Below, piece by piece: positions 36,186 through 49,470 of a stretch of 60,059 nt of DNA. Under the pieces are notes generated by a model. That model did no database searches, had not been told where the DNA came from, and saw only the letters and a list, made by a program, of their open reading frames with translations. How positions within the stretch are numbered: position 1 is the stretch's first letter; each line of letters starts with the position of its first letter. The stretch comes from Candidatus Omnitrophota bacterium (GTDB lineage Bacteria > Omnitrophota > Gorgyraeia > Gygaellales > Profunditerraquicolaceae): assembly GCA_050012075.1 (NCBI GenBank), contig JBEKHW010000005.1:1-60059 (forward strand), read 5' to 3'. The translations under genes were made by a program, and so were the position numbers.

Positions 36186-36229
36186 GCTGTTTTCGAGACA
36201 GCCACATTCAACCGCTCTGCCAACTCTCC
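36186..36229 (-). pseudogene. tRNA-Ser(CGA)-like 5' half (acceptor 5' strand, D arm, complete anticodon arm) with no variable arm, T arm or acceptor 3' strand
   Basis: Reverse complement GGAGAGT-TG-GCA-GAGCGGTTGAA-TGT-G-GCTGT-CTCGAAA-ACAGC, followed by the family 2 hairpins rather than a T arm. Confidence 0.7.
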
Positions 36230-37359
36230 AAATATGTAAGCGCTTTTCCCGCCACTCTACGTAAGAGCTTGCGGGATTCCGCTGACAAAACTAAAAGGAT
36301 ACGGCGGAACGAGGTGCGCGGTCCCCCAAAAATCACGCAAGATAGCTTCTCCTGTCCGTATCTTTCAAAAAACGCGCTTGAAGCATCCCTGGCCATACGT
36401 GAACAGGGAGATTCAATGCATAAATAATAAATCCACCCGGCCAGAAGAACCAAGGCAAAAACGAACAACGAGATCCCGGGAAAAATTATTCTGGCGGCAT
36501 TTATCACAAACCAATGTACCAAATACAAGCTATAACTGATATGCCCGATAAAACGAAAGAGCGGGCTTGCCAATACCTGATGAACAATAGATCTGCACTT
36601 GACGATACTCAATATGCCAAGCGCTACAAGTGGCGCTAATAGCCAGGAGCGGGCCCAAATTCCCGCGTAATCTAAAGACCTGACCCAGAAATAAAATACG
36701 ATCGGAGACACATAGATCGCTATCTTCCAATAAACGGGTTTTACCTTATCCAGCTTACACTTTTTTAATGCTATAGCGGAAAGAGCTCCCGAAAAGAAAT
36801 AAAGAAAACTCCCTTGCGGCAGTAAAAATCCTTTATTTATCGCTACAAAAAATAAACCTGCCCCAAAAACCATCGTGATCGTAAAAGCTATCCGGGTTGA
36901 TAATAAAAAGAAGCCGTAAGCTATCAGAGGATAGACCAGATAGAATTTAATTTCTACGGGGATCGTCCAAAAAACGCCCTTGCTTTCGCATAAGAGCCAA
37001 CTGGGGATAAGGCCGGCTATCCCCCCTTCTCCCTGCGTTAAAGGGAAACCGTGCGGTAAATACCGCTCCAGCAGCAGATATCCGAAGGTTGCGACAAAGA
37101 ACGCCGGGTAAACCCGGATAAAACGGCGGATAAGGAACGCCGTCCAATAAGGCGCCGAGAAACCTTCGAGAAAATAATGGTAGGCCATAAGAAATCCACT
37201 TAAGGTATAGAAGATCATCACGCCGAACGAACCTATTCCGCGTAATAGCGGCACGAAATGCACGTATCCGGCATGACAGAATATCACCAGCAGGCAAGCT
37301 AAGCCGCGCAGCCCGTCAAGGGCGGGAAGGGGATGATATTTTGTAGTCTGAGAATTCAT
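36208..37359 (-). CDS. acyltransferase family 3 (membrane O-acyltransferase)
   Basis: LDGLRGLACLLVIFCH motif and about 10 TM helices. Start moved to Met33 (MNSQTTKY) because the upstream 32 codons lie inside repeat copy C. The last 7 codons run into the tRNA-like head at 36210-36229. Confidence 0.8.
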   Translation of the reverse strand: MNSQTTKYHPLPALDGLRGLACLLVIFCHAGYVHFVPLLRGIGSFGVMIFYTLSGFLMAYHYFLEGFSAPYWTAFLIRRFIRVYPAFFVATFGYLLLERYLPHGFPLTQGEGGIAGLIPSWLLCESKGVFWTIPVEIKFYLVYPLIAYGFFLLSTRIAFTITMVFGAGLFFVAINKGFLLPQGSFLYFFSGALSAIALKKCKLDKVKPVYWKIAIYVSPIVFYFWVRSLDYAGIWARSWLLAPLVALGILSIVKCRSIVHQVLASPLFRFIGHISYSLYLVHWFVINAARIIFPGISLFVFALVLLAGWIYYLCIESPCSRMARDASSAFFERYGQEKLSCVIFGGPRTSFRRILLVLSAESRKLLRRVAGKALTYLESWQSG

Positions 37360-37381
37360 TTTCCAGAGCGGCGGTGCGTTT

Positions 37382-37518
37382 GCCGCCGCATTTTGAGCAC
37401 AAACAAGCGCCGATAGGCGCATATAGCGAAACCCTCCGGAACCCGCGTCATGCAATTATTGCCTATCCGGCAAAGGGCGCAGGAGGGCTAACCGTTCTGC
37501 CAACTCTCCAGAAATTTA
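37382..37518 (-). repeat. tRNA-Ser-5'-half-like element, copy C (flanked by the 12-bp direct repeat GGCGGTGCGTTT at 37370-37381 and 37521-37532)
   Basis: Minus-strand reading: GGAGAGTTGGCAGAACGGTTA, long hairpin CCCTCC...GGAGGG, then the conserved core TTTCGCTATATGCGCCTATCGGCGCTTGTTTGTGCTCAAAATGCGGC. Confidence 0.8.
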
Positions 37519-37865
37519 ATGGCGGTGCGTTTATCGTTGTGTTCGAACGATATTCAACGCACCATAATAATTTTATTTATCTTTTAGGCACCGCGCCTTG
37601 GGGCGCTCCCGTATCTCCCGCGCCCCGCTCGGCTTCTGTGGGCAGAAGCCTCGCTTGGCGTCCGCCTTGGTCGGCTGGCTTCTTGCTAATTTTAATGCGG
37701 GTTCAGCTTTGCTTGTGTTTTGCGGCTGGGTGTGGGCAGCCGCAAAACACAGCGTCCTCACAACAAGTTTTTAATGAGCGAGTTCGTCCGCCGTCTCGCC
37801 TAATACAAATTAAATACTGCTTCGGACGGCGAGACGCAAAGCTTCTCACGCGCAGTGCTTCGAAA

Positions 37866-37917
37866 CCAAAAACTACTAGGGGCGGGCGTGGTCCGCCGCA
37901 GGCGGACGCCCGCCCCT
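37866..37917 (-). terminator. rho-independent terminator ending the kinase/exopolysaccharide operon
   Basis: ~17-bp GC-rich hairpin AGGGGCGGGCGT..CCGCC-GCA-GGCGG-ACGCCCGCCCCT, followed on the minus strand by TAGTAGTTTTT. Confidence 0.7.
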
Positions 37918-38043
37918 ATAAAACCTATCTGGCAAAATTTTGCTGAGAAAAAGAAAAAATAAACTAACCTTTCTCAAAAGGTATTATAAGTTAAAAAGGA
38001 AGTTGCGTCAATTAGAAGTTGCTAATACTGTGTAAATTTCAGA

Positions 38044-39426
38044 TTAGATTTTTTCTAACTCTTCCGGATGGGCGTCAAAATAAGTTTTTATATTTTGCAA
38101 TATCACATCGAGGTCGTCCTGAGGGACTTTACCAATTATTCTCTTTAGCTTTGTTAAATCCGGAACCCTTCTTTTTATATCCTGAAAATGCTCTCCGTAA
38201 TAATTGCTGTAAGGCTCAAAGACTATTTTAGATGAACTCCCGGTAATCTCTTTTATCTTTAAGGCAAGATCCTTTATTGAGGTTTGGTCGTTACAACCCA
38301 GATTTATAATTTCGCCATTTGCCTTTTCTAAAAATGTAAGCTCCATGATTATCTCTATCGCATCATCTACATAGGTAAAACAACGCGCCTGTTCGCCGTC
38401 TCCGTAAACAACTATCGGCTCATTCGTTAAAGCCCGCTTAAAGAAACGCGGTATCACCATCCCATACCTGCCGACTTGGCCCGGGCCGACGACATTAAAC
38501 AATCTTATTACCACTACCGGCAGGCCTCTCTCTCTGTGATAACTTATTGCCAGGAATTCATCTAGTAATTTTGAGCAGGCATAACTCCACCTGTTGATAT
38601 CCGGCGGCCCGATAATCAAATCAGTATCCTCTCTGAACGGCACGGCAGCAGACTTACCGTATACTTCCGAGGTAGAGGTAAGCACAACTTTAATTCCTCT
38701 TGCCGAGGCATATTTTAAGACCAGCTCGGTGCCAAAAGTATCATAGATAAGAGTATCCAAAGGTTTCTCAACCACATTCCTTACCCCCACAGTGGCAGCA
38801 AGATGGTATATCAAATCACTTTGCTCAATAAGTTTGCTTAAGATTGCCTCATCGGTAATTGAGCCTACGACAAACTGAAGGTTCTTATTATCTTTGATAT
38901 CTTCAATGTTTTCTTTTCTTCCGGTTGATAAATCATCCAAAATAAAAATGTTATAATTCTTGGCCAACAGCGCACGGACAAGATGCGAGCCGATAAATCC
39001 TGCGCCTCCGGTAATCAATATATTTTTGATATCTTTGCTGCTCTTCCGGACCTGTGCCCTTCTTAATAAAGCGTTTATCCGGCTGATGAACTCCTCCGGC
39101 TGGTAAGGTTTAGCAACATAATCATCCGCGCCCAGATCCAGTGCCTTGGACTTTTCCTGAGGAGAAAATGCTGCCGAAAGCATCATTACGGGAATATCGG
39201 CGGTTTTATTATCCGAACGCAACTTCTGCAGCGTTTGATAGCCGTCCATAACCGGCATAAATATATCCAGAATAATAATATCCGGGATATCTTTTTTTAT
39301 AGAATACAATGTCTCCTCTCCGTTAGAGGCCGTGCGTACCTTAAATCCGTTACTTTCTAAGCGCAAAGAAACAAGTTTAAGTAATTCGGGATCATCGTCA
39401 ACGAGTAAAACTGTGGGAATCTCCAT
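38044..39426 (-). CDS. receiver (REC) domain fused to an extended-SDR NAD-dependent sugar-nucleotide epimerase/dehydratase (UXS/RmlB-like)
   Basis: The N-terminal 120 aa form a REC domain (VLLVDDDPE, IIILDIFMP, AKPY). Then come the Rossmann motif ITGGAGFIGSHL and the catalytic motif YACSK. Confidence 0.9.
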   Translation of the reverse strand: MEIPTVLLVDDDPELLKLVSLRLESNGFKVRTASNGEETLYSIKKDIPDIIILDIFMPVMDGYQTLQKLRSDNKTADIPVMMLSAAFSPQEKSKALDLGADDYVAKPYQPEEFISRINALLRRAQVRKSSKDIKNILITGGAGFIGSHLVRALLAKNYNIFILDDLSTGRKENIEDIKDNKNLQFVVGSITDEAILSKLIEQSDLIYHLAATVGVRNVVEKPLDTLIYDTFGTELVLKYASARGIKVVLTSTSEVYGKSAAVPFREDTDLIIGPPDINRWSYACSKLLDEFLAISYHRERGLPVVVIRLFNVVGPGQVGRYGMVIPRFFKRALTNEPIVVYGDGEQARCFTYVDDAIEIIMELTFLEKANGEIINLGCNDQTSIKDLALKIKEITGSSSKIVFEPYSNYYGEHFQDIKRRVPDLTKLKRIIGKVPQDDLDVILQNIKTYFDAHPEELEKI

Positions 39427-39547
39427 TTTTCTCCTTACTATCTTTTATCAGAAGATATGATGCGATAGGTATCATCGTCTTTAATATCTTCAGAGAATCT
39501 CTTGTCACCGACTACCAGAATTTTCTTATTCATATTTTTTATGTGTT

Positions 39548-40960
39548 TTAAGTTGAATGCTTTGTTCTAACGTACTGATCGAACTCCCGCATCTTTCTGA
39601 AATAACTGAGCGTCCCGGAGATTTTAGCAACAGAAATTATCCAGCGATAGAAAATAAATTCTACGAGGCTTAAGAATATTAAATAAATAGTGTATCTTTT
39701 CGGAAAAAGTTTCTGCGTCCTGGTAAAAGAAAATATGGAGAGCAGGGAAAAAATCGCTTGTGTCATTATCATAAGGGCAAGAAATGCAAAAAAGATATTA
39801 CTATCTATTAAATGCATCAGCCATCCGGTCAGAACAAAAAAGAGGCTGGCTATTTCAAAAAATACTCCCAGCACCTCATAAAGCACGTAATAAGGAAAGG
39901 TGAAAATCCCGATGCCCCCATATTTTGATTTAAAAAATATCGATCTGTATTCAACAACACTCTCAATTTCTACTCTCTGCCAGCGGTCGCGCTGCTTAAT
40001 GAGGGAACGGATATTCGCAGGGCCGTCTGTCCATGCAACGCAAAAGGGAAGCATTACGACGCGATACGGCTTTTTATTATCAGCAATATATTTATGCACA
40101 CGGAAGGTAAACGGCAGGTCTTCGCAGGTAAATTCCGGGGAATATCCGCCAAGCTCGTATAAAAGATCCCTGCGCCATACTCCAAAACCCCCGGCAATAA
40201 TCGGCACGGCATTAAACCTGCTCCAGCCGACACGGTTTCCGAAAAAGGAACGGATGTATTCCAGCTGCTGATAGGCAATGATAGGTCGGTAAAGAAATCT
40301 TTTTTCTATTATCACTCCGTCTTTTATCTTAAACCCGTTAGAAATCCCGAAATAACTGCCTATGCCTACGATTCTTTCAGGATCCTTCTGGACTTCTGCC
40401 ATTACCCTTAAAAGTGAATCCTGCTCAAGCACCGTATCTGCATCAAAAACGCAGACATAATCATATTTGGCAATATTAAGCCCCGCATTCACTGCCCCTG
40501 CTTTTTTAAACCCTTTGGCTTTGCGTATTACCGATATATTAGGATATTTCTGGCTCTTTAATATATCGTAAGTCTTTCCGTCTTTATAATGCCGTATGTA
40601 AACCATCTCGGTAGGCTTTAAATCCAGCATTTTATTAAGTACATCAAACGTAGAGTCTATTGAGCCGTCATCCACCACAATAAGTTCAAATTTGGGATAG
40701 TTAAGGTTAACAACTGATTTTACGGAATCAGATATCCAATCTTCTTCATTGCAGGCAGGCATTACAATACTTACCGGAATATTAAAAGAGGTGAAATAAG
40801 CCAAGGAATAATCCTCTCCTTCTTTTTTTCTGGCCCATATCTTGCCTTCTATGAATCCTACTGCCCCCAAGAAGAGATAATACAGGACAAGTATAAAAAA
40901 ATATCCAAAAAAAATCAGGAAAGCAACATAGGTAATTTTTGACCACACCAAATAGTTCAT
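39548..40960 (-). CDS. processive GT2 beta-glycan synthase (PgaC/BcsA-class catalytic core)
   Basis: N- and C-terminal TM helices flank VVDDGS, FDADT and the QRDRWQR (QxxRW) motif. Confidence 0.85.
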   Translation of the reverse strand: MNYLVWSKITYVAFLIFFGYFFILVLYYLFLGAVGFIEGKIWARKKEGEDYSLAYFTSFNIPVSIVMPACNEEDWISDSVKSVVNLNYPKFELIVVDDGSIDSTFDVLNKMLDLKPTEMVYIRHYKDGKTYDILKSQKYPNISVIRKAKGFKKAGAVNAGLNIAKYDYVCVFDADTVLEQDSLLRVMAEVQKDPERIVGIGSYFGISNGFKIKDGVIIEKRFLYRPIIAYQQLEYIRSFFGNRVGWSRFNAVPIIAGGFGVWRRDLLYELGGYSPEFTCEDLPFTFRVHKYIADNKKPYRVVMLPFCVAWTDGPANIRSLIKQRDRWQRVEIESVVEYRSIFFKSKYGGIGIFTFPYYVLYEVLGVFFEIASLFFVLTGWLMHLIDSNIFFAFLALMIMTQAIFSLLSIFSFTRTQKLFPKRYTIYLIFLSLVEFIFYRWIISVAKISGTLSYFRKMREFDQYVRTKHST

Positions 40961-40966
40961 ATTTGC

Positions 40967-42067
40967 TTAATCAGAACCCTCTTTTGCCAGTGCCTCTTTA
41001 AAACCTTTCAGAGCGATTCCGGCTGTTGTAAGTACCTCTACAGCCATCTTCCGCGATAATTCGTCCTGGCCATCAAGCATCTTTTTTAAGTACGGGAGAG
41101 AAACATCGATATTCTGAATTAAAATCTCTTTAGCCGCCTCTACCACGTTTAAAGAATTATCGCTTAATAATTCCGCTATATATTTCACGGCGTTTTTGCC
41201 TGTTGCGTTTGCAAGGCCCTGTGCTGCCTGAACCCTGACCAGCCATGATTCGTCTTTTAAACAAGGAATCAATACCTCTTCTGCCTCTTTTCCGCCGATA
41301 TTGCCAAAGCATTCACAGGCAGCGGCGCGCACCTGCGCTAACTTATCCCGGCTTAAGGCTTTGATTTTTTCCGTATATTTTGCAGGTTTAAAACGCGAAA
41401 GTATTTTTGTCGCCCAGAAACGGACTTCAGGATCAGGGTCATCTACCAGTTTTATAATTTCATCCGCAGCAAAAGGCGGAAAATTCTCCAATACCGAAGC
41501 AGTTTTTCTCCGCATCAGGGCATCCTTTTTTAAGAAGGCCAGCAAGATCCGTGTTGAAAGCCCGGTTTTTATCTGCCCTAAGGAAAGGAGGGAAAAATAA
41601 GAGATGTCAGGGTCTTTGTCAAAAAGCCCTTTTTCAAAAATAGCCAGCGCGCTAGAAGCACCCGAAAGCCCGAGGGCAAGTATTGCCTCAATGCGGCGCC
41701 ATTTATTCCTTCCTCTCCTAGCAGTCCGTTCAATCTTAAGTATATTCTTTTGATTAACAAAGGAACTCTTGAAATATTCCTGCTCTTCTTCGTTAAAGAA
41801 TACCGCCCATCTGCTTCTGTTGGTTGCCACATCCAGAAATTCTTTTGGGGTAAATTTTTCGGAAACTGCGAGGCTACCATTTTTGTCCTTTTTTGAAATA
41901 AGTAAATCATAGATATTTCTTTTTATATTCATAAGCCTGCGCTTGCGCCCTGCCAGTAAAAAATCTCCAATAACAAGATAGATAATAATAAAGAAAACCA
42001 AAATAATAAGGATGACCAGTAAGGTTAGATCGACTTTCCAGACTAAATCAGGGTAATAGTTCTGCAT
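40967..42067 (-). CDS. membrane-anchored HEAT-repeat protein
   Basis: One N-terminal TM helix and repeated D.....VR..A...L units (DPEVRFWATKIL, LAQVRAAACECF, SWLVRVQAAQGL). Confidence 0.75.
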   Translation of the reverse strand: MQNYYPDLVWKVDLTLLVILIILVFFIIIYLVIGDFLLAGRKRRLMNIKRNIYDLLISKKDKNGSLAVSEKFTPKEFLDVATNRSRWAVFFNEEEQEYFKSSFVNQKNILKIERTARRGRNKWRRIEAILALGLSGASSALAIFEKGLFDKDPDISYFSLLSLGQIKTGLSTRILLAFLKKDALMRRKTASVLENFPPFAADEIIKLVDDPDPEVRFWATKILSRFKPAKYTEKIKALSRDKLAQVRAAACECFGNIGGKEAEEVLIPCLKDESWLVRVQAAQGLANATGKNAVKYIAELLSDNSLNVVEAAKEILIQNIDVSLPYLKKMLDGQDELSRKMAVEVLTTAGIALKGFKEALAKEGSD

Positions 42068-42078
42068 GGGAATTAAAC

Positions 42079-43331: not shown

Positions 43332-43432
43332 CCCCCTTCTGATTAAGATTTACTAATTTTCTTATCTGTCCCATTTACCCCGTTAAAGTATACAGTTCTC
43401 TAACGGGGTTTACTCTCAAAAGATTATTTTTT

Positions 43433-43519
43433 TCAGTAAGCGCTGTTTTTTAATCTAATGCTTAAAAACTCCACAAAATCCGGCTCATCGTCAACAACTA
43501 AGATTTTATTAGCTGACAT
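43433..43519 (-). pseudogene. truncated receiver gene 5' fragment (28 codons)
   Basis: Encodes MSANKILVVDDEPDFVEFLSIRLKNSAY then a stop. The first ~25 nt match the start of the gene at 44356. Confidence 0.7.
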
Positions 43520-43523
43520 TTTT

Positions 43524-43892
43524 TTAAATAATCTCTCTTATTGTGGCTAATAATGTACTGGCATCGAAGGGCTTGGCCATTAAAATGTTCCTATTTCTCA
43601 TATGGCTCCTCTCTTTCTCTTCGCTTTTTGTATATAGGCAAGTCAAAAATATAATTGGGATATTTTCCGTCTCAGGATCGAGTTTTAAAGTTTGCGCCAT
43701 AGCAGGACCGTCAACCTTAGGCATTAAAATATCTAGGATGATTAAGGCGGGTTTGTGTTCTTTAACCTTTTCTAATCCCTCTTGCCCATTAGAGGCAGTG
43801 ATTACCACATAATTATTCGCCTCTAACCTTGTCTTTATCATCTCTAAAAAATCCGGTTCATCATCTACTACTAATATCTCCTTCTTATCCAT
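43524..43892 (-). CDS. single-domain response regulator (REC4)
   Basis: Start set at MDKKEILVVDDEPDF (Met19 of the listed ORF). LIILDILMP...LTCL...AKPF. Confidence 0.88.
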   Translation of the reverse strand: MDKKEILVVDDEPDFLEMIKTRLEANNYVVITASNGQEGLEKVKEHKPALIILDILMPKVDGPAMAQTLKLDPETENIPIIFLTCLYTKSEEKERSHMRNRNILMAKPFDASTLLATIREII

Positions 43893-44002
43893 TGCCTCGC
43901 TCCTTTCAGCAACTCGGAGTAACCAGTAAAATCTTACACCGGTCACCGGTCACTTTTTGATAAAGTACTTTTTATCACTCATCGTCAACAACTAAGATTT
44001 TC

Positions 44003-44356
44003 TTAGGCATTCTCAACTATCTCCTTTATGGTATCTAAAGAAAATGGCTTACGTAAGAATATATCTACTCCCAAGTCTTTGGCAAAATCTTCATTGATTA
44101 AATCATAACCAGAAATCATAATCTTCTTAGCTTGAGGGTTCTTTTCCTTTATCACCTTAATGAGCTCAACCCCTGATAATTCTGGCATATTACAATCAAA
44201 AAAAATACAATCGTACTTATTCACATCCAATAAACCTTTCGCCTCCAGGCCATCGTAAGCTGTATCTACAGAGTAACCGCGTTTTGTAAGATACTGCTTA
44301 AAAAATTGACAGCATTCTTTTTCGTCATCAACTACTAAGATTTTCTTAGCTGACAT
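44003..44356 (-). CDS. single-domain response regulator (REC3)
   Basis: KILVVDDEKE...IFFDCNMP...ISGY...RKPF. Confidence 0.88.
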   Translation of the reverse strand: MSAKKILVVDDEKECCQFFKQYLTKRGYSVDTAYDGLEAKGLLDVNKYDCIFFDCNMPELSGVELIKVIKEKNPQAKKIMISGYDLINEDFAKDLGVDIFLRKPFSLDTIKEIVENA

Positions 44357-44744
44357 TATTTTTTACCTTATATTGAGGAGCGATATCCAATATACTATTT
44401 AAGTTATCGACTTCTTGCTGCAAATCGCTGGTTTTAACAATAAACCCTGAGGCCTGTAATTTGTTCGCCACTTTAAATCTTTCTTCATTAGAAAATGCGG
44501 TGATTATAAACACCGGTAAATTTTTATTGTCTCTTCTTATTCTTCTTAATACTCTAAGCCCGTCGAGTTCAGGCATCAATATATCAAGAAGAACCACATC
44601 CGGTTTTTCCTGTTTCACTTTCTCTAATCCCTCTTTGCCATTAAGAGCGGTGATTACCTCATAATTATTTGCCTCTAACCTTATCTTTATCATCTCTAAA
44701 AAACCAGCTTCATCATCTATTACCAATATCTTCTTTTTGTCCAT
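44346..44744 (-). CDS. single-domain response regulator (REC2)
   Basis: KILVIDDEAGF...VLLDILMP...ITAFS...IVKT. Confidence 0.9.
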   Translation of the reverse strand: MDKKKILVIDDEAGFLEMIKIRLEANNYEVITALNGKEGLEKVKQEKPDVVLLDILMPELDGLRVLRRIRRDNKNLPVFIITAFSNEERFKVANKLQASGFIVKTSDLQQEVDNLNSILDIAPQYKVKNNVS

Positions 44745-44764
44745 AGAAATCGCCTCTCTTTCTA

Positions 44765-45136
44765 CTATTTAATTAGTATCATGATTTTCTCAATTAATTC
44801 CTTTGATTCGTATGGTTTAAAAATAATATCGTCCGCGCCGCAAGCACGGCATTTTGCTTCAACCTCTATTGCGCCTCCGGCAGCGGTGATTACAATAATG
44901 GGAATATCTTTAGTTTTGGGATTGGCCTTCATGCGCTTGCAGACTTCGTAACCGTCTATCTTGGGCATAAGAAGATCAAGAAGCACCAAATCGGGAAGCT
45001 CAGAATCAGCTTTTTTTAAGCCTTCCTCACCGTCTATCGCCGAGATACAATCAAAACCGTTTGACTCTAATCGGGTCTTGACAAGCATTACCTGGTCTGA
45101 TTCATCTTCAATAAAAAGAATTTTCTTTTTCTTCAT
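44765..45136 (-). CDS. single-domain response regulator (REC1)
   Basis: ILFIEDESD...VLLDLLMP...ITAAG...FKPY. Confidence 0.9.
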   Translation of the reverse strand: MKKKKILFIEDESDQVMLVKTRLESNGFDCISAIDGEEGLKKADSELPDLVLLDLLMPKIDGYEVCKRMKANPKTKDIPIIVITAAGGAIEVEAKCRACGADDIIFKPYESKELIEKIMILIK

Positions 45137-47882
45137 TATTCTGTGCTCCTTCTCTTGCCTTACGAATTAAATCCTCCCCCGCTGTAGCATCATCCGGTGT
45201 AGCGCAGCCAAAATGCAATTTTATTGGAATAGTGGCCTTTTTGCTTTTCAGGTAACTATAAAGCACTTTCTTTAATCTTTCCTCTACGACATGACAGCCT
45301 TCTTTATTACATTCAGGCAAAATTACTGCGATCTCGCTTGTACCCTCTACCACAATATCGTCTTCACGGCGTACGGTATTCTTAAGAACGCCGCACATCT
45401 CTTTTAAGATTAAACCCAGTTCTTCCTTGGGCATTTGCTTCTTTGCTTCCTTAAAATCAGCCAGAGACACAAAAACCAAAGACATCTTGGAGCCTTTTTT
45501 CGCCGCTAGCTTTATGCCTTTATTGATATATTCTTTAAATAAACTTTCTGCATCATGCCTGAGTAAGGTAAGAGTAAATTTTGTGCCTTTTCCTAACTGG
45601 CTTTCTACTCGGATATCACCTTCATGCATATCGACCAGGCCTTTGACAATAGAAAGCCCAAGACCAGTCCCTTTTTCGCCTGGCCCAATAACTCGGCTAA
45701 ATTGCTGAAACTTGTCAAATACTTTTGGCAGGCTATCTTGCGAAATACCAATTCCGGTATCGGAAACCGCGCATTCAATCTTATCTTCCAGTTTCTTAGC
45801 GGAAATTTTAATGGAACCTTTTTCGGTGAATTTTATAGCGTTATTGACAAGATTTGTAAAAATCTGTACTATTTTATCCGAATCAGCATAAATTTCAATT
45901 TTTGACGCAGAGAAATCAGTCTCTAGTTTAAGATTTTTCTCTTTTGCCTGCCTTTCAAATCCGGAAATAACCTGTTTTATAATTGCCACAATGTCCAATA
46001 ATTTTATCTTCATCTCTGTCTTCCCTGCTTCTATCTTGGAGACATCCAATAATTCATTGATGATGTTGGCAAGCCGATCAATACTACTTTTGGCGGTATT
46101 CAGAATACGAGATTGTTTTTCATTAATCTCACCCGGAATTCTATCCAAAACAAGGCTTAAGGCCTCCTTCGTTATGGAAAGCGGTGTACGTAATTCATGG
46201 GAAACTATGGAAACAAAATCAGATTTTATCTGGTTAAGTCTCTTTAGCACCTCGTTTTCGCGCAGAGCTTCTTCCGCTTTCTTGCGCTCGGTGATATCCC
46301 AGAAGAAGCCCAAGACCCCTCTAACATTGCCTTTTTTGTCTAGAATAGGGGCTTTAATGGTATTAACAAACACCTCTTGAGTGCTTTTAAGAAAATCATT
46401 CGTCACTAAGAACGACTCTTCTATATTCTCGGTCTTCCCCGACTCCATAACTCTCTTATCGTCAGCCCTGTATTTCTCAGCCAGATGTGTTGGAAAAAAA
46501 TCATAGTCTGACTTTCCTACAATTTCTTCCGGCTTGATCTTCAGATCTTTTGCGTAGTTTTCATTACAGGATATGTAAACTGAATTTCTATCTTTTAAAA
46601 ATACCTTTCCGGGAAGATTTTCAACAAGCACCTTAAGTTGGCGCTCCCTCGCCTGTAATAATTCATTCTCCAGCCGTCTGTGTTCGGTGATATCGTGATA
46701 TACGCTTAAAAACATGTCGCTCCCTTTATAGCTCATCAGGGAAGTAGCCACCAGCAATATCTTCTCTGTCCCGTCTTTTGTCCTAATTACAGTCTCTGCC
46801 TCATGGTAACCGGTAACCTTAACCTCATCCAGGGCTGCTAGTGCCTCCTTGCGCGCTTCCGGCTCCGGGTAAATAAGGGCGCTAAAATCGCTGCTTGCAG
46901 CCACCTCGCCAAAGGTATATCCTGTCATCTCCTGCATCTTGGGGCTGAATATCTCAAAACGGCCATTTTTATCGCTTAAGGTTATGCCGTCGCCCACGCT
47001 TGCGATAATCTTCTGCAGCTGCCAGGAGGTCTCTAACACATCTGATTCCGCCTTCTTGCGTTCGGTGATGTCACGGATGTTACATTGGATAACTTTTGCC
47101 TTGTTAACTAAAAAAACCTCTGAATTTATACTCAGGCCTTTTTTGGTTTTTACCGGAGTGTCTTCGTAATGAATTACACCATCTTTTTCCAATCTTGACA
47201 CCATCCCTTGAAAGTCCTTATCATCTTTAACCACGCCGATTTCCCATAATTTCTTTTTCAAAAACTCCTCCGGGGAATAATCCAGTAATTCCCGGGCAGA
47301 TTCATTAGAATTAAGAATATCAGCTTCGGTTTTATGAACAAGCAATAATCCATCCCGCGATGTTTCAAAGGCCCTGCGATAACGCTCCTCAGACGCCTTC
47401 AATTCTTCTTGTAAACGCTTAGGCTCGGTGATATCTTCAATAGCCAGTAGGATTAGCTCTTCTTCTTCTTCTTCTTCTTGTTGTTGTTGTTGTTGTTTGC
47501 TTACCCCTGCCGCTATTATTACTGCTATTTGCTTAGGGACGCGCAACTGAAGGGCATTCAGACACATGACTCGCTGTCCAATTTGCTCAAATTTATGCTC
47601 GACTTCATAATCTTTCACAACTTTCTTTTCTGGTATAATTTCTTTTAATAGTTGAAGCAGCTTAGGAATATTCCATTGCCTATTACCTAAATCAGGGAGT
47701 AGCCGGCCTATTGCATCTTTTTCTGTAACCTTAAAGGTGGTATAGAAAACTCGGTTGGCAGAAATGACTTGTAAGTTCTTATCTAAAACCAAAAATGGCT
47801 CCCTTAGTGTAGCAATGATACTATTGGCATACCCTAAGAGCACTTTGCTCTCTGTTTCACCCCTCTGCTTTTTATCTTCCAT
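45108..47882 (-). CDS. cytoplasmic multi-PAS histidine kinase with a C-terminal degenerate GGDEF-like domain
   Basis: No TM helix and three or more PAS modules. H-box SHELRTPLS and HATPase motifs (NLVNNAIKFT, DTGIGI, GLGLSI). The C-terminal ~150 aa have GGDEF topology, but the active site reads EGTSEI. Confidence 0.88.
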   Translation of the reverse strand: MEDKKQRGETESKVLLGYANSIIATLREPFLVLDKNLQVISANRVFYTTFKVTEKDAIGRLLPDLGNRQWNIPKLLQLLKEIIPEKKVVKDYEVEHKFEQIGQRVMCLNALQLRVPKQIAVIIAAGVSKQQQQQQEEEEEEELILLAIEDITEPKRLQEELKASEERYRRAFETSRDGLLLVHKTEADILNSNESARELLDYSPEEFLKKKLWEIGVVKDDKDFQGMVSRLEKDGVIHYEDTPVKTKKGLSINSEVFLVNKAKVIQCNIRDITERKKAESDVLETSWQLQKIIASVGDGITLSDKNGRFEIFSPKMQEMTGYTFGEVAASSDFSALIYPEPEARKEALAALDEVKVTGYHEAETVIRTKDGTEKILLVATSLMSYKGSDMFLSVYHDITEHRRLENELLQARERQLKVLVENLPGKVFLKDRNSVYISCNENYAKDLKIKPEEIVGKSDYDFFPTHLAEKYRADDKRVMESGKTENIEESFLVTNDFLKSTQEVFVNTIKAPILDKKGNVRGVLGFFWDITERKKAEEALRENEVLKRLNQIKSDFVSIVSHELRTPLSITKEALSLVLDRIPGEINEKQSRILNTAKSSIDRLANIINELLDVSKIEAGKTEMKIKLLDIVAIIKQVISGFERQAKEKNLKLETDFSASKIEIYADSDKIVQIFTNLVNNAIKFTEKGSIKISAKKLEDKIECAVSDTGIGISQDSLPKVFDKFQQFSRVIGPGEKGTGLGLSIVKGLVDMHEGDIRVESQLGKGTKFTLTLLRHDAESLFKEYINKGIKLAAKKGSKMSLVFVSLADFKEAKKQMPKEELGLILKEMCGVLKNTVRREDDIVVEGTSEIAVILPECNKEGCHVVEERLKKVLYSYLKSKKATIPIKLHFGCATPDDATAGEDLIRKAREGAQNNEEKENSFY

Positions 47883-47896
47883 TTTTTAAGCCCTCT

Positions 47897-47946
47897 TTAA
47901 AAACAAAAACCCAAGGTCTGCTAAATTATGCAGAATCCTTGGGTTT
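47897..47946 (-). terminator. rho-independent terminator between the AlpA-like gene and the kinase operon
   Basis: AAACCCAAGG...CCTTGGGTTT stem followed on the minus strand by TTTTGTTTTT. Confidence 0.65.
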
Positions 47947-48157
47947 AATCTAAAAAAATTGCTGAAGCAGTTATTCCTGCTTGATTGCTTGCTTATATGA
48001 GTCATCTTCATCCCATATTGAAGATATCCCTATTTTAGAATAGCAGTATATCATATATTATTATCATAGGCAAAATATATTACGGTGTCCATTACTAAGG
48101 GTATCTCGTCTTGAACGCCAAGAAATACGGCGCGGTAGAAAAAATCTCTGTATATAG

Positions 48158-48355
48158 TTATATTGGAATCTTAAATGAACTTCTACCCCTTCTCAACCTT
48201 TTCCTTAACCAATCGTCTATTTCTCTTTCCTTAAATCTAACCCCATTAGGAAGTTTATAATGTGGTATAAATCCACAATGCGTCCACTCGTAAAGCGTGC
48301 TCCGGCTTATTTGGATTAACTCACTCAATTGATCAACAGTTAGTAGCTTTTCCAC
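48158..48355 (-). CDS. AlpA/excisionase-type helix-turn-helix protein
   Basis: 65 aa. LTVDQLSELIQISRSTLYEWTHCGFIPHYKLPNGVRFKEREIDDWL is the HTH_17 pattern. Confidence 0.8.
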   Translation of the reverse strand: MEKLLTVDQLSELIQISRSTLYEWTHCGFIPHYKLPNGVRFKEREIDDWLRKRLRRGRSSFKIPI

Positions 48356-48418
48356 AGGGTTGGATTACCTCAATCTCCGCCTTTTAGGTAATTTTCCCGA
48401 CATAAACCTCTCATCCCA

Positions 48419-48503
48419 GGTATACACTTAGTATACAGTTTCTACAGAAATATACACGTTTTGTACACTATCAGAAGAAAATCTAGGCAACCAAAAGTAT
48501 ACA
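48419..48503. repeat. five dispersed (G/A)TATACA(C) repeats (iteron or arm-site-like)
   Basis: GTATACAC 48420, GTATACAG 48431, ATATACAC 48450, TGTACAC 48462, GTATACA 48497. They lie between the AlpA-like gene and tRNA-Ser(CGA). Confidence 0.6.
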
Positions 48504-48591
48504 AAAACAAAACGCAACCTACTGATTTACCAATAAGTTGCGTCATAACTTCTTCACTTCTATAAAATTGCGTCTACCGCCTTAAAATGTA

Positions 48592-48679
48592 TGGCGGAAG
48601 GAGCAGGATTCGAACCTGCGAGGCATTGCTGCCTGGACGCTTTCGAGGCGTCTGGAATCGACCACTCTCCCATCCTTCC
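48592..48679 (-). tRNA. tRNA-Ser(CGA)
   Basis: Reverse complement GGAAGGATGGGAGAGTGGTCGATTCCA-GACGC-CTCGAAA-GCGTC, long variable arm, GCAGGTTCGAATCCTGC, TCCTTCCGCCA. Confidence 0.9.
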
Positions 48680-48687
48680 TTACATAA

Positions 48688-48778
48688 GCCGCATTTTGAG
48701 CATAAACAAGCGCCGATAGGCGCATACGGCGAAATCCCGTGAAACGGGAAAACCGCTCTGCCAACTCTCCAGAAATTT
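48688..48778 (-). repeat. tRNA-Ser-5'-half-like element, copy A (91 nt, immediately upstream of tRNA-Ser(CGA))
   Basis: Minus-strand reading: GGAGAGTTGGCAGAGCGGTTT, hairpin TCCCG-TTTCA-CGGGA, core TTTCGCCGTATGCGCCTATCGGCGCTTGTTTATGCTCAAAATGCGGC. Confidence 0.8.
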
Positions 48779-48800
48779 CTAGTGGCGTAATTTACTTATG

Positions 48801-49076
48801 CTACCTGGTCAAAAAGAAAAATATCGTTCCGGTCAATATGCAGAGGACACCGATGAGGTTCTTAACATTAAAAAACAAATCATGCAAAGTCAAAATATTA
48901 GATTCTATCTTCGGAAAGATCCTGATCTTAATCCCGCCTATATCCTTATTAATCTTGTCCTCTACCTTAGCGTAGTTCCTATGAAGAATAATCAATACTC
49001 CCATCAGGATAATAATGGGGCTGCCGATGTGCATGAAATCTTTCATAATCGCATATAATGATACTCCGTCTTCCAT
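48801..49076 (-). CDS. small membrane hypothetical protein
   Basis: 91 aa with two TM helices and a GGAGG RBS. Confidence 0.5.
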   Translation of the reverse strand: MEDGVSLYAIMKDFMHIGSPIIILMGVLIILHRNYAKVEDKINKDIGGIKIRIFPKIESNILTLHDLFFNVKNLIGVLCILTGTIFFFLTR

Positions 49077-49232
49077 TTTAGCCTCCTTTCCCTCTTTTGG
49101 CCTTACGCAACACTCTTCGACTGGCGTCCGTGCTTCGCTCTTTAGTAGACTCGCAATAGCTTTGATGAGCTACGCAGGACTTTCCCACAGTTCTTCGAAG
49201 CTCAAACGTGAAAACATTTGAGCGAAGAAGAA

Positions 49233-49319
49233 CGGTGGGGGTGAGATTTGAACTCACGGAGGACTTACGCCCTCACCTGTTTTCAAGACAGGCCCATTCG
49301 ACCACTCTGGCACCCCACC
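49233..49319 (-). tRNA. tRNA-Ser(UGA)
   Basis: Reverse complement GGTGGGGTGCCAGAGTGGTCGAATGGG-CCTGT-CTTGAAA-ACAGG, long variable arm, GTGAGTTCAAATCTCAC, CCCCACCG. CCA is not encoded. Confidence 0.88.
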
Positions 49320-49385
49320 AGTTTTTCCCGCTAAGCAAGCTTTAGCGCCTGCGGGACTCCCTCGCTGTCGCTCGGTCGCAATACT

Positions 49386-49470
49386 GCCGCTTTTTGAGCA
49401 CCAACAAGCGCCGATAGGCGCATATAGCGAAATCCCACGACAGTGGGACAACCACTCAGCCACCCCACCC
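49386..49470 (-). repeat. tRNA-Ser-5'-half-like element, copy B (85 nt, upstream of tRNA-Ser(UGA))
   Basis: Minus-strand reading: GGTGGGGTGGCTGAGTGGTTG (the head resembles the neighbouring tRNA-Ser(UGA) 5' end), hairpin TCCCAC-TGTC-GTGGGA, core TTTCGCTATATGCGCCTATCGGCGCTTGTTGGTGCTCAAAAAGCGGC. Confidence 0.8.

What the first reader, a model, noticed from the sequence alone, without database searches (positions are those of the whole stretch)
36186..49470. Repeat family the size of tRNA-Ser that starts with a tRNA-Ser 5' half, clustered with tRNA-Ser genes, serS, rtcB and archease
There are four minus-strand copies. Copy A (48688-48778) lies 8 nt upstream of tRNA-Ser(CGA), and copy B (49386-49470) lies 66 nt upstream of tRNA-Ser(UGA). 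Copy C (37382-37518) sits directly in front of the acyltransferase start codon, and copy D (36186-36229) lies about 170 nt upstream of tRNA-Ser(GGA). Each begins with an acceptor-5'-strand plus D-loop mimic. This reads GGAGAGTTGGCAGAGCGGTT in A, C and D. In B it reads GGTGGGGTGGCTGAGTGGTT, which copies the neighbouring tRNA-Ser(UGA) 5' end. In A, B and C the head is followed by a hairpin that is conserved in position but not in sequence or length: TCCCG/CGGGA, TCCCAC/GTGGGA, CCCTCC...GGAGGG. Then comes a core of about 47 nt that is almost identical in the three copies, containing GCGCC-TATC-GGCGC and ending TGCTCAAAATGCGGC. A and B are 91 and 85 nt, the same size as the real tRNA-Ser genes, yet none has a T arm or an acceptor 3' strand. 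Copy D instead keeps a perfect anticodon arm, GCTGT-CTCGAAA-ACAGC. Relative to tRNA-Ser(UGA) its closing pair is changed in a compensated way, and it is then truncated by a different repeat. Copy C is bracketed by a perfect 12-bp direct repeat (GGCGGTGCGTTT), like a target-site duplication. The strongly conserved core and covarying hairpin argue against simple decaying pseudogenes. Possibilities, all speculative: a tRNA-derived mobile or SINE-like element; a tRNA-like small RNA, decoy or processing signal; or an RNA connected with the RtcB-archease ligase pair encoded a few kb away.
Basis: partly seen in the sequence, partly recalled or inferred. Interest (0 to 1): 0.78.

Follow-up and report, generated by a model that had tools for sequence, protein, structure and literature searches.

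The report
Broken tRNA-Ser genes carrying hairpin inserts
The four "tRNA-like repeats" are leftover front parts of serine-tRNA genes, three of them split by an inserted block of hairpins, and they belong to a widespread, apparently undescribed family of small mobile cassettes (a tiny GIY-YIG nuclease gene plus a spare tRNA-Ser) that repeatedly break and replace tRNA-Ser genes in many uncultured bacteria.

Summary
The reading needs one correction: the "core" is a roughly 55-nt insertion in the D loop. After it, the tRNA-Ser sequence resumes, then breaks off at or before the anticodon loop in A, B and C.

Copy B lies where related Omnitrophota keep an intact tRNA-Ser(UGA). Copies A, C and D carry the 5' end of the relatives' tRNA-Ser(CGA). 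A different, intact tRNA-Ser follows A and B.

The same design sits upstream of a real tRNA-Ser(UGA) in Omnitrophota, Ignavibacteriales, Bacteroidota, CPR bacteria and others. It consists of a tRNA-Ser 5' fragment with G+C-rich hairpins inserted at GGTT(G)^AA in the D loop or CTTG^AAAA in the anticodon loop.

In 9 of 9 contexts examined, an ~85-aa GIY-YIG nuclease gene lies between the fragment and the real tRNA. A pattern scan found about 70 further cases, 43 of them scored with the nuclease gene. The window itself has no GIY-YIG gene.

Best reading: these are nuclease-less relics of nested tRNA-Ser-targeting cassettes. Copies A and C flank an 11-kb low-GC island. The insertion mechanism is inferred, not shown.

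They are not a SINE or a known RNA family, and the link to RtcB is only local synteny. No description was found in the literature searched.

The parts
49450..49469 (-). Copy B head: positions 1-20 of the ancestral tRNA-Ser(UGA), GGTGGGGTGGCTGAGTGGTT.
   Evidence: It matches the intact tRNA-Ser(UGA) of L002, L003 and L004 at 19 of 20 positions. It starts about 25 nt after the stop codon of the conserved membrane ORF; in L004 the tRNA starts 8 nt after the homologous stop.
49395..49449 (-). Copy B D-loop insertion. It comprises a G, hairpin hp1 (TCCCAC-TGTC-GTGGGA), TTTCGC..., the hairpin GCGCC-TATC-GGCGC and TTGTTGGTGCTCA.
   Evidence: Alignment A4 shows a 55-nt gap in the relatives between GGTTG and AAAGC. 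The core is 94% identical to that of C. The second hairpin plus TTGTT scores as terminator-like.
49379..49394 (-). Copy B resumption of the tRNA: AAAAGCGGCAGTATTG. This covers the end of the D loop, D-stem 3' strand, position 26, anticodon-stem 5' strand and xTTG of the anticodon loop.
   Evidence: It matches AAAGCGGCAGTCTTG of the relatives' tRNA-Ser(UGA).
49321..49378 (-). Copy B second insertion, at CTTG^AAAA of the anticodon loop. It reads CGACCGAGCGACAGCGAGGGAG, then hairpin TCCCGC-N19-GCGGGA (49326-49356), then AAAAC.
   Evidence: The same insertion type sits at the same site in L102, L106, L108, L110, L127, L133 and L159. In L108 the GIY-YIG ORF follows it. The hairpin was located.
49233..49319 (-). 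Intact tRNA-Ser(UGA). Its D, anticodon, variable and T stems differ from those of the relic.
   Evidence: ARAGORN and Rfam both call it. A similar tRNA follows the unit in L159.
48688..48770 (-). Copy A. Head 48751-48770; D-loop insertion 48697-48750 (hp1 at 48735-48749, second hairpin at 48710-48723); resumption AAATGCGGC at 48688-48696, after which the tRNA sequence breaks off.
   Evidence: The head matches L004 tRNA-Ser(CGA) at 20 of 20 positions. The core is exact. The fragment ends at the same tRNA position as the units in L237 that precede a GIY-YIG gene.
48595..48679 (-). Intact tRNA-Ser(CGA), unrelated in its stems to the A, C and D heads.
37533..48591 (-). Roughly 11-kb low-GC island between the new tRNA-Ser(CGA) and copy C. 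It encodes a PAS histidine kinase/GGDEF protein, five single-domain response regulators, a HEAT-repeat protein, a family-2 glycosyltransferase and a response-regulator/epimerase fusion.
   Evidence: GC is 0.36-0.42 against 0.45-0.49 in the flanks. In L004, L102 and L110 the three tRNA-Ser genes lie within 1-2 kb.
37382..37509 (-). Copy C. Head 37490-37509; a long hp1 (CCCTCC...GGAGGG); core 37385-37434; resumption AAATGCGGCGG. It lies 22 nt upstream of the acyltransferase ATG.
37370..37381 (-). Right copy of the 12-bp direct repeat AAACGCACCGCC. The left copy is at 37521-37532.
   Evidence: Two exact matches in the window.
36186..36229 (-). Copy D: tRNA-Ser(CGA) positions 1-43 with no insertion, broken at the start of the variable arm.
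   Evidence: It aligns with L004 tRNA-Ser(CGA). The anticodon stem shows a compensated change, G-C to T-A.
36247..36276 (-). Hairpin TCCCGC-N18-GCGGGA followed by AAAGCG, just upstream of D. It looks like the remnant of another unit.
   Evidence: Located. The same 'GGCGGGAAAAGCG' junction occurs in the L007-type units.
32353..32439 (-). Related relic: a 3' pseudo-fragment of tRNA-Arg(ACG) downstream of the real gene. It reads GCTGG-TTC, then [TCCCGCC-N17-GGCGGGA] twice, then AAAT-CCAGC-CAGGCGCA, so the two hairpins sit in the T loop.

Best explanation
Copies A, B, C and D are non-functional 5' remnants of tRNA-Ser genes. Mobile DNA that targets tRNA-Ser genes disrupted them and brought a replacement tRNA-Ser.

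Shown directly:
- In A, B and C a module of two hairpins sits in the D loop, exactly after GGTT(G).
- B has a second hairpin module in the anticodon loop, after xTTG.
- In A, B and C the tRNA sequence stops at position 29-35. In D it stops at position 43.
- An unrelated intact tRNA-Ser of the same anticodon follows A and B.
- A and C flank an 11-kb low-GC island as direct repeats.
- The same architecture recurs across phyla, usually with an ~85-aa GIY-YIG nuclease gene between the fragment and the real tRNA-Ser(UGA), sometimes nested like Russian dolls.

Inferred mechanism:
- The GIY-YIG protein is a homing-type endonuclease that cuts tRNA-Ser genes in a loop.
- Repair from a cassette-bearing copy uses the tRNA halves as homology arms. 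It copies in the hairpin module, the nuclease gene and a spare tRNA.
- Repeated cutting and mis-aligned repair give tandem arrays of fragments.
- Later deletions remove the nuclease gene and the 3' halves, leaving relics such as those in this window.
- The near-identical insertion in a UGA-type relic (B) and in CGA-type relics (A, C) shows that the module moved between tRNA-Ser paralogues, by homing or by gene conversion.
- The hairpins probably lock the dead fragment into a long stem. D-loop AGYGG pairs with the UUCGCY that follows hp1. This would stop the fragment from mis-pairing with the co-transcribed real tRNA, or from being cut again.
For: Origin of the heads:
- Relative L004 has serS, a membrane ORF, tRNA-Ser(UGA), an ORF, tRNA-Ser(CGA), an ORF and tRNA-Ser(GGA) within 2 kb.
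- B aligns to the relatives' tRNA-Ser(UGA) with a 55-nt D-loop insertion, at the same genomic position.
- A, C and D carry the first 20 nt of L004 tRNA-Ser(CGA). The sequence resumes after the insertion in A and C.
- The intact tRNAs in the window differ from the relics.

Homologous units elsewhere:
- They lie upstream of a real tRNA-Ser(UGA) in about 15 other genomes.
- The signature GGGATTTCG...CTCAAAAWGC is found in six other loci, all of which carry a tRNA-Ser head (L106, L108, L127, L133, L159, L193). Among the 120 loci from the metagenome scan, it is in only the four with such a head.

GIY-YIG link:
- The ORF lies between unit and tRNA in L108 and L094.
- All 7 homologues looked up (L231-L237) sit directly upstream of tRNA-Ser(UGA), behind a 5' fragment plus a double hairpin.
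- A scan for the double hairpin gave 85 matches. By the automatic classification, 43 are followed by GIY-YIG, 14 by a short spacer and then the tRNA, 10 are a double hairpin plus a 3' half, 16 lacked a perfect first palindrome and 2 were unclassified. About 10 of the 85 are plain chance matches. Several of the 16 (L279, L284, L306, L263) also have a GIY-YIG hit.
- Nested structure, with both halves of the outer tRNA retained, is seen in L233 and L231.

Structure and island:
- hp1 covaries. RNAalifold supports the extended hairpin and hp2.
- The island has low GC.

Precedent:
- Phage SegB is a GIY-YIG homing endonuclease in tRNA clusters and drives segmental amplification (PMC2330249, PMC13096335).
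Against: - No GIY-YIG gene is present in the 60-kb window or in the 22-kb locus L087, which extends about 9.6 kb beyond the window's high-coordinate end. The link rests on homology of the units, chiefly to L108.
- No 3' halves of the broken genes are left in the window.
- Nuclease activity and target specificity of this ~85-aa single-domain GIY-YIG protein are untested. It has no match to a solved structure and only a weak match to the group I intron endonuclease model.
- The intact inner tRNA carries the same loop sequences as the presumed target, so classical homing immunity is not explained.
- Conserved non-tRNA islands (GGGATTTCG, GTGCTCAAAA) from Omnitrophota to Ignavibacteriales hint at a function beyond a scar.
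- The origin of the double hairpin on both sides of the cassettes is not explained.
Confidence: 0.62

Rival explanations
1. The units are functional cis-acting RNA elements. In this reading they are structured leaders of tRNA-Ser precursors, or 5' UTRs of the GIY-YIG and acyltransferase genes. Candidate roles are insulators, attenuators or processing signals. The long hairpin formed by the D loop, hp1 and UUCGC, plus the terminator-like second hairpin, would control read-through from serS or folding of the downstream tRNA.
For: - They always have the same orientation and lie immediately upstream of a gene.
- hp1 covaries.
- RNAalifold pairs D-loop AGYGG with UUCGCY, using G-U pairs.
- GGGATTTCG and CTCAAAAWGC are conserved across phyla while the sequence between them is free.
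- The second hairpin plus TTGTTT scores as terminator-like.
- Units precede the start codons of GIY-YIG by 4-35 nt and that of the acyltransferase by 22 nt.
Against: - Folding z-scores are ordinary: -0.95, -2.2 and -1.2.
- The supposed pairing partners decay in close relatives. L133 has AAAAT in place of GAGC, and the D-stem pair is broken in L159 and L127.
- The closest relatives L002, L003 and L004 do without any unit.
- Copies are truncated at different positions (29, 31, 35 and 43).
- No Rfam family matches.
Confidence: 0.17
2. The hairpin blocks are small non-autonomous mobile elements in their own right. They would resemble REP or IS200/IS605-type palindromic elements, moved in trans, inserting at TT(G/C)^(A/G)A in single-stranded loops of tRNA-like DNA. 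The GIY-YIG cassettes and the island would then be independent events.
For: - Insertions sit at the same short target in the D loop (GGTTG^AA), the anticodon loop (CTTG^AAAA) and the T loop (TTC^AAAT or TTC^GAAT).
- There is no target duplication.
- Modules consist of one to three hairpins with conserved feet, TCCCG..CGGGA or TCCGCC..GGCGGA.
- hp1 differs completely among A, B and C although the adjoining core is 92-94% identical.
- A similar hairpin, CCCGCCAAAGGCGGG, lies at the start of the group I intron in this window.
Against: - In the window these hairpins are seen almost only next to tRNA genes. Five of the seven TCCCG..CGGGA hits are tRNA-associated.
- No Y1/HUH transposase is seen among the genes examined (window 30-60 kb and the related loci inspected).
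- The hairpin starts 0-1 nt from the junction, unlike IS200/IS605 ends (from my own knowledge of that family).
- No copies were found in ordinary intergenic DNA.
Confidence: 0.12
3. A and C are the attL and attR sites of an island integrated by a tyrosine recombinase, with the tRNA-Ser head as the shared core. B and D would be older att scars.
For: - A and C are direct repeats flanking an 11-kb low-GC island.
- A phage-type integrase lies 5 kb away, with its stop codon abutting the 5' end of tRNA-Lys.
- tRNA genes are classical integration sites (established knowledge).
Against: - The duplicated part is the 5' end of the tRNA plus an insertion, not the 3' part that integrases normally duplicate.
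- There is no integrase inside the island.
- The one integrase belongs to a separate low-GC island at tRNA-Lys. No tRNA-Lys repeat was found within about 16 kb.
- B has only 66 nt between the relic and the tRNA.
- The same units occur in many genomes with no island between them and the tRNA.
Confidence: 0.07

Closest known systems
Free-standing GIY-YIG homing endonuclease genes in phage tRNA clusters (T4/T6 SegB)
   Same: A GIY-YIG nuclease gene lies next to tRNA genes. Inheritance of flanking tRNA DNA is non-reciprocal. The nuclease drives tandem segmental amplification of tRNA-containing segments (PMC2330249; PMC13096335). This parallels the tandem arrays of fragments in L093, L106, L109 and L237.
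   Different: - The elements here are chromosomal. A pattern scan found none in viral contigs.
- The protein is about 85 aa with only the nuclease domain. SegB, from my recollection and not checked here, is roughly 220 aa with an added DNA-binding domain.
- The target is one isoacceptor family, tRNA-Ser, mostly UGA.
- The resident gene is split, and a spare tRNA plus palindromic hairpins come with the cassette.
- The window itself has no nuclease gene.
Integrative elements that target tRNA genes and carry a replacement tRNA segment
   Same: Insertion is into a tRNA gene. Function is preserved by a tRNA sequence carried on the element. A partial tRNA duplicate is left at the junction. An island lies between direct repeats (A and C).
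   Different: - The remnant is the 5' part, upstream of the intact gene, not the 3' part.
- Breakpoints are in the D loop or the anticodon loop.
- No integrase is associated with the units.
- The replacement is a complete tRNA that sometimes differs in sequence (L233).
Group I introns with homing endonuclease genes in bacterial tRNA anticodon loops
   Same: The insertion is in the anticodon loop of a tRNA gene and is associated with a GIY-YIG ORF. One genuine example, in a probable tRNA-Asn, lies in this same window.
   Different: There is no group I catalytic core in any unit. The interrupted gene is not restored by splicing. Instead it is replaced by an extra tRNA copy.
REP elements and IS200/IS605-derived palindromic elements
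   Same: These are short G+C-rich palindromic hairpins, single or in pairs, inserted without target duplication next to a short conserved sequence.
   Different: The hairpins here appear restricted to loops of tRNA fragments. No Y1 transposase was seen among the genes examined. The hairpin abuts the junction directly.

Membership tests
tRNA (Rfam RF00005 / ARAGORN) | Complete cloverleaf with an acceptor stem closed by a 3' strand, and a T arm | tested here: not met
   ARAGORN and cmscan call the six real tRNAs but none of A-D, even at E<=10. No T-loop motif lies near the copies. No 3' halves were found by local alignment.
tRNA-derived SINE or MITE | Many dispersed copies at unrelated sites, with defined ends and target-site duplications | tested here: not met
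   Copies occur only at tRNA-Ser loci, here and in other genomes. The exact core is absent from the genome, metagenome and viral collections. Only C has a flanking repeat.
GIY-YIG / tRNA-Ser cassette family (defined here) | A 5' fragment of tRNA-Ser with a hairpin module inserted at GGTT(G)^AA or CTTG^AAAA, directly upstream of an intact tRNA-Ser | tested here: met
   A and B meet it fully. C has the fragment and the module but is followed by a protein gene. D is a fragment without a module. Homologous units are shown.
GIY-YIG / tRNA-Ser cassette family (defined here) | A GIY-YIG (PF01541) ORF of about 85 aa between the fragment and the intact tRNA | tested here: not met
   tblastn with two of these GIY-YIG proteins finds nothing in the window or in L087. 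The ORF is present in L094, L108 and L231-L237, and in 43 of the loci classified. Fourteen loci lack it in the same way as the window.
Homing endonuclease element | The nuclease cuts the empty allele, and the element is copied in by repair | not testable with these tools
   This needs an enzyme assay or filled-versus-empty alleles within one population. The only indirect support is nesting (L233) and the same insertion in UGA-type and CGA-type relics.
Group I intron | Catalytic core P3-P9 detectable by RF00028 | tested here: not met
   RF00028 hits only 15736-15938 in the window. It gives nothing in the units.
Archaeal-type bulge-helix-bulge tRNA intron joined by RtcB | A BHB motif at the exon-intron junctions; the interrupted gene is complete and is the functional copy | tested here: not met
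   - No BHB could be drawn by inspection, which is a weak test.
- The window's copies lack 3' exons.
- Among the double-hairpin matches that are not chance hits (about 70), only one complete tRNA carries the hairpins with no intact tRNA-Ser(UGA) beside it in the locus (L248). A second complete one (L261) lies beside another tRNA copy.
Tyrosine-integrase att site in a tRNA gene | A duplicated 3' segment of the tRNA at the far end of the island, and an integrase gene at one end | tested here: not met
   It is the 5' segments that are duplicated. The island has no integrase. The only integrase sits at tRNA-Lys.
Bacterial Y RNA (tRNA-like module near rtcB) | An adjacent Rsr/Ro60 gene and an RNA with a tRNA-like acceptor and T arm | tested here: not met
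   No Y RNA match appeared in the Rfam scans at E<=10. No TROVE-domain match was found among the ORFs scanned between 29.8 and 54.8 kb. The copies lack a T arm.
IS200/IS605-type palindromic element or REP | Subterminal hairpins, insertion 3' of a fixed tetra- or pentanucleotide, and a Y1 transposase in the genome | tested here: inconclusive
   A fixed short target and the lack of target duplication fit this family. No transposase was seen among the genes examined. The whole genome is not available.

The most novel reading that the evidence does not exclude
The hairpin modules may not be scars. They could be the working parts of a new kind of selfish element, in one of two ways.

(a) A roughly 400-bp cassette made of a double hairpin, a minimal GIY-YIG nuclease gene and a complete tRNA-Ser moves by a mechanism in which the nuclease recognises the palindromic hairpins or tRNA-gene cruciforms as structures. 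The retained tRNA halves would serve as homology arms.

(b) The hairpins are a new class of bacterial tRNA intron, cut out of the D, anticodon and T loops and resealed by RtcB-archease. That would make the serS-rtcB-archease neighbourhood meaningful.
Probability: 0.12. Interest if true: 0.9.

Novelty: new variant of a known kind. Interest (0 to 1): 0.6.

Why it matters
If the family-level reading is right, an essential tRNA gene is a recurrent battlefield across many uncultured bacterial phyla, including CPR, Omnitrophota, Desulfobacterota and Bacteroidota.

- A nuclease gene of only about 250 bp travels with a spare tRNA-Ser. It splits the resident gene and leaves nested, hairpin-plugged fragments.
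- This would extend homing-endonuclease biology from phage tRNA clusters and self-splicing introns to intron-free chromosomal cassettes that keep the host alive by gene replacement.
- It would explain odd tRNA-Ser pseudogenes, tandem arrays and contig breaks in metagenome-assembled genomes.
- It offers a very small nuclease with a possibly structure-guided, highly specific target.
- It shows how such relics can become landing pads for larger islands, such as the 11-kb island here.

For this window alone, the finding is a set of relics.

Tried and rejected
- Exact-core scans. ATGCGCCTATCGGCGCTTGTT and a 19-mer gave 0 hits in genome contigs, metagenome contigs and viral contigs. A degenerate core pattern gave 3 chance hits. 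The core as such is therefore private to this genome.
- Rfam. Gathering and E<=10 scans of the window regions and of 11 related loci matched no family except real tRNAs, a tmRNA and group I introns. Weak hits to sX4 and Flavobacterium-1 were judged to be chance or tRNA-driven.
- Sigma-54 and sigma-70 promoter readings of the head and core, by eye and, were rejected. Any -10 element would place the transcription start inside the tRNA.
- T-box, Y RNA, hammerhead and BHB-intron readings had no supporting motif.
- The idea that the integrase at tRNA-Lys explains the units was tested by looking for a far-end tRNA-Lys repeat in the extended contig. None was found.
- A search for displaced 3' halves of the broken tRNA-Ser genes in 35.8-50 kb found none above noise.
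- The metagenome scan with GGTTGTCCC..GGGATTTCG returned mostly chance hits, 116 of 120. It served as a negative control.
- Four literature searches found no description of chromosomal GIY-YIG/tRNA-Ser cassettes. The library is incomplete, so this is absence of evidence only.
- The similarity of B's hp1 to the variable arm was judged coincidental.

Full report
**1. The observation**

The window comes from a Candidatus Omnitrophota genome. The closest SerRS relatives are 62-78% identical. The source contig is ERZ27250059 k141_193614.

Reading the minus strand, the gene order is:
- integrase (54820-53681), then tRNA-Lys, archease, rtcB, serS and a 231-aa membrane ORF;
- copy B, tRNA-Ser(UGA) and a 91-aa ORF;
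- copy A, tRNA-Ser(CGA) and about 11 kb of sensor kinase, response regulator and glycosyltransferase genes;
- copy C, an acyltransferase, copy D and tRNA-Ser(GGA).

This order rests.

- The core 21-mer occurs three times, with none expected by chance.
- The 50-nt core is 92-94% identical among A, B and C.
- The heads are as described.
- The distances to the tRNAs and to the acyltransferase ATG are right.
- The 12-bp repeat around C is exact.
- No copy has a T arm or a 3' acceptor strand.

One item was not confirmed. D is not visibly cut off by another repeat. The nearest one (family D10) lies about 85 nt further on.

**2.

The 3' end of the 'core' is tRNA sequence again.
- In A and C, ...GCTCA is followed by AAATGCGGC(GG). 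In B it is followed by AAAAGCGGCAGTATTG.
- These are the end of the D loop, the 3' strand of the D stem, position 26 and the 5' strand of the anticodon stem. In B the anticodon-loop bases xTTG are included too.
- The D-stem partner changes with the head: GCA/TGC in A and C, GCT/AGC in B.
- Aligned with the intact tRNA-Ser(UGA) genes of relatives L002, L003 and L004, B is that gene with a 55-nt insertion between GGTTG and AAAGC.
- B starts about 25 nt after the stop codon of the conserved membrane ORF. In L004 the tRNA starts 8 nt after the homologous stop.
- A, C and D carry the first 20 nt of L004's tRNA-Ser(CGA), a 20 of 20 match in A and D. D continues without an insertion to position 43.
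- In L004 the three tRNA-Ser genes (UGA, CGA, GGA) lie within 2 kb downstream of serS.
- In the window the intact UGA and CGA genes differ in sequence from the relics.
- 11 kb of low-GC DNA separates the CGA and GGA positions. GC is 0.36-0.42 there, against 0.45-0.49 in the flanks.

**3. The same design in other genomes**

A scan for 'tRNA-Ser head + TCCC...GGGAT' in species-representative genomes gave 22 loci. About 13 of them are true homologues: nine in Omnitrophota (counting L093 and L095, two stretches of one contig, and L104, which is labelled Planctomycetales), two in Ignavibacteriales, one in Lewinellaceae and one in Candidatus Undivivens. A metagenome scan added four more.

Where a downstream tRNA could be called, each unit lies just upstream of a real tRNA-Ser(UGA). 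Some are in tandem: three units in L106, repeats with a 150-nt period in L093, and two or three units in L109.

Conserved between genomes are:
- the head, a G, and the foot of hairpin hp1 (TCCC...GGGA);
- TTTCGC and (G)TGCTCAAAA;
- the resumed tRNA up to CTTG;
- often a second insertion at CTTG^AAAA, ending in a TCCCGC...GCGGGA hairpin followed by AAAAACYG(TTG), which is the rest of the anticodon loop and stem.

The middle of the window's core, including GCGCC-TATC-GGCGC, is not conserved.

The signature GGGATTTCG...CTCAAAAWGC is present in six independent loci, all with a tRNA-Ser head. Among the 120 loci of the metagenome scan it is in only the four with such a head.

hp1 covaries. There are 12 cells changed on both sides, 96% of cells are paired, and 0 of 500 shuffles reach the observed values. 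The stems were taken by position relative to the anchors GGTTN and T(TTCG/CCCG), not by folding.

RNAalifold pairs D-loop AGYGG with the UUCGCY after hp1, which gives one long hairpin, and it supports hp2. Single-sequence folds are not unusually stable.

No Rfam family matches.

**4. The associated gene**

- In L108 (Omnitrophota) and L094 (Lewinellaceae), an ORF of about 81-87 aa with a GIY-YIG domain lies between the unit and the real tRNA. The two proteins are 45% identical.
- A database search returned 42 homologues, all carrying PF01541.
- All seven genomic contexts looked up (L231-L237) show the gene directly upstream of tRNA-Ser(UGA), often reading into it. Upstream of the gene is a tRNA-Ser 5' fragment plus two short palindromic hairpins, typically CCCGCC-NNN-GGCGGG and TCCGCC-NNN-GGCGGA.
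- The hairpins sit at CTTG^AAAA in L232-L236 and at GGTT^GAA in L237.
- In L231 the outer tRNA is interrupted in the D loop. Hairpin pairs sit in the anticodon and T loops of its 3' remainder, downstream of the inner tRNA.
- L237's fragments end ...GAACGCGGC, the same tRNA position as copy A.
- L233, from a CPR bacterium, is nested. Its order is fragment a, hairpins, GIY-1, fragment b, hairpins, GIY-2, complete tRNA c, CTTG, hairpins, and then the 3' half of b.

A scan for 'CTTG + hairpins + AAAAAC' in representative genomes gave 85 matches in 79 loci:

| Class (automatic classification) | Matches |
|---|---|
| Fragment, hairpins, GIY-YIG, tRNA-Ser(UGA) | 37 |
| Same, but the contig ends or no tRNA is called | 6 |
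| Fragment, hairpins, short spacer, tRNA-Ser(UGA), no GIY-YIG | 14 |
| Hairpins plus a 3' half | 10 |
| No perfect first palindrome | 16 |
| Unclassified | 2 |

- The 14 loci without GIY-YIG match the state of copy B. In 13 of them the spacer is 17-82 nt; in one it is 336 nt.
- The 10 'hairpins plus 3' half' cases are mostly a duplicate 3' half downstream of the real tRNA.
- About 10 of the 16 matches without a perfect first palindrome are plain chance hits. The others have an imperfect first palindrome, and several of those also have a GIY-YIG hit.
- Only one complete tRNA carries the hairpins with no intact tRNA-Ser(UGA) beside it in the locus (L248). A second complete one (L261) lies beside another tRNA copy.
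- None was found in viral contigs.

The window has no GIY-YIG ORF.

The window does hold a mirror-image relic: a 3' fragment of tRNA-Arg(ACG) with two TCCCGCC...GGCGGGA hairpins in its T loop, downstream of the real gene. A further such hairpin followed by AAAGCG lies just upstream of D.

**5. Interpretation**

Shown:
- A-D are 5' remnants of tRNA-Ser genes.
- A, B and C carry a hairpin module at one exact D-loop site, and B carries another at one exact anticodon-loop site.
- Intact tRNA-Ser genes of the same anticodon follow A and B.
- The near-identical module sits in a UGA-type relic and in CGA-type relics, so it has moved between paralogues.
- A and C are direct repeats around a low-GC island.
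- The architecture is shared with a widespread family in which a minimal GIY-YIG gene and a complete tRNA-Ser are inserted into a resident tRNA-Ser gene, sometimes repeatedly.

Inferred:
- The GIY-YIG protein acts as a homing-type endonuclease on tRNA-Ser genes.
- Repair uses the retained tRNA halves as homology arms.
- Re-cutting with mis-aligned repair makes tandem arrays. Phage SegB does this in tRNA clusters (PMC2330249, PMC13096335).
- Recombination between duplicate halves, together with deletions, removes the 3' halves and the nuclease gene.
- The hairpins neutralise the dead fragment, either against re-cutting or against mis-pairing with the co-transcribed tRNA.

Not explained:
- why the intact inner tRNA would be immune to the nuclease;
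- why the hairpins flank the cassettes on both sides;
- why GGGATTTCG and GTGCTCAAAA are so well kept between phyla;
- the 12-bp repeat around C.

**6. Rivals**

- A functional leader or insulator RNA is the strongest rival. Covariation, orientation and conserved islands speak for it. Against it are ordinary folding energies, decay of the supposed pairings in close relatives (L133, L159, L127), the absence of units in the nearest relatives, and the variable truncation points.
- Autonomous hairpin mini-elements of the REP or IS200/IS605 kind would explain the fixed short target in all three loops and the unrelated hp1 sequences next to a near-identical core. But no transposase was seen, and no copies were found away from tRNA fragments.
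- An integrase att-site reading fits only the A/C island geometry.
- A new intron type sealed by RtcB is not excluded (L248), but it is unlikely. Nearly every hairpin-bearing copy is accompanied by an intact one, the window's copies lack 3' exons, and rtcB is not seen in the non-Omnitrophota loci examined.

**7. Novelty**

Four literature searches found no description of these chromosomal cassettes. The closest known systems are phage SegB-type free-standing GIY-YIG endonucleases, integrative elements that target tRNA genes, and group I introns with endonuclease genes in tRNA anticodon loops.

I rate the family as a new variant of a known kind. The window's own copies are nuclease-less relics of it.

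Noticed in passing
window 15680-15986 (+): A tRNA gene is interrupted by a group I intron (Rfam RF00028, 67.6 bits, 15736-15938), which ARAGORN missed. Joining 15680-15714 to 15946-15986 gives tRNA-Asn(GUU). Another junction that also obeys the U(-1)/terminal-G rule would give Thr(UGU). The start of the intron carries a CCCGCC-AAA-GGCGGG hairpin, the same type as the first hairpin of the GIY-YIG cassettes.
   Followed up: partly
window 53607-56500 (-): The stop codon of a phage-type tyrosine integrase (53681-54820) abuts the first base of tRNA-Lys(CUU). A Phage_rep_O-like ORF and a low-GC stretch (0.33-0.39) lie upstream. Relatives L008 and L029 have no integrase-sized ORF at this position. 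No tRNA-Lys repeat was found within about 16 kb.
   Followed up: partly
window 32353-32439 (-): A 3' pseudo-fragment of tRNA-Arg(ACG) lies between the real tRNA-Arg(ACG) and a tadA-like deaminase gene (31836-32306). It has a self-consistent T stem (GCTGG/CCAGC) and the acceptor 3' strand, with two TCCCGCC-N17-GGCGGGA hairpins inserted in the T loop.
   Followed up: partly
window 31345-31470 and 36063-36102: Two tandem 63-nt repeats lie directly downstream of tRNA-Ser(GCU), each with a terminator-like hairpin CCAGCTTTTTC-TCTT-GAAAAAGCTGG. A third, partial copy lies upstream of tRNA-Ser(GGA).
   Followed up: no
window 59815-60018: Two tandem 102-nt repeats, 73% identical, lie at the edge of the window.
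   Followed up: no
window 42933-45136 (-): Five single-domain response-regulator genes are clustered next to a 924-aa PAS/histidine-kinase/GGDEF protein inside the low-GC island. Three of the regulator genes share repeats of 114-185 nt at 68-78% identity.
   Followed up: no
L248 3355-3480 (+), Omnitrophota MAG QNCG01000033: This is the only complete tRNA-Ser(UGA)-like gene found with the double hairpin in its anticodon loop and no intact tRNA-Ser(UGA) nearby. After the 30-nt insert is deleted in silico, ARAGORN calls it tRNA-Ser(UGA). It is a possible test case for splicing.
   Followed up: partly
L007 7713-7812: A 100-N gap lies inside the tandem array of units upstream of tRNA-Ser(UGA). Several other arrays sit at contig ends (L093, L095, L100, L082). 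These repeats seem to break metagenome assemblies.
   Followed up: no
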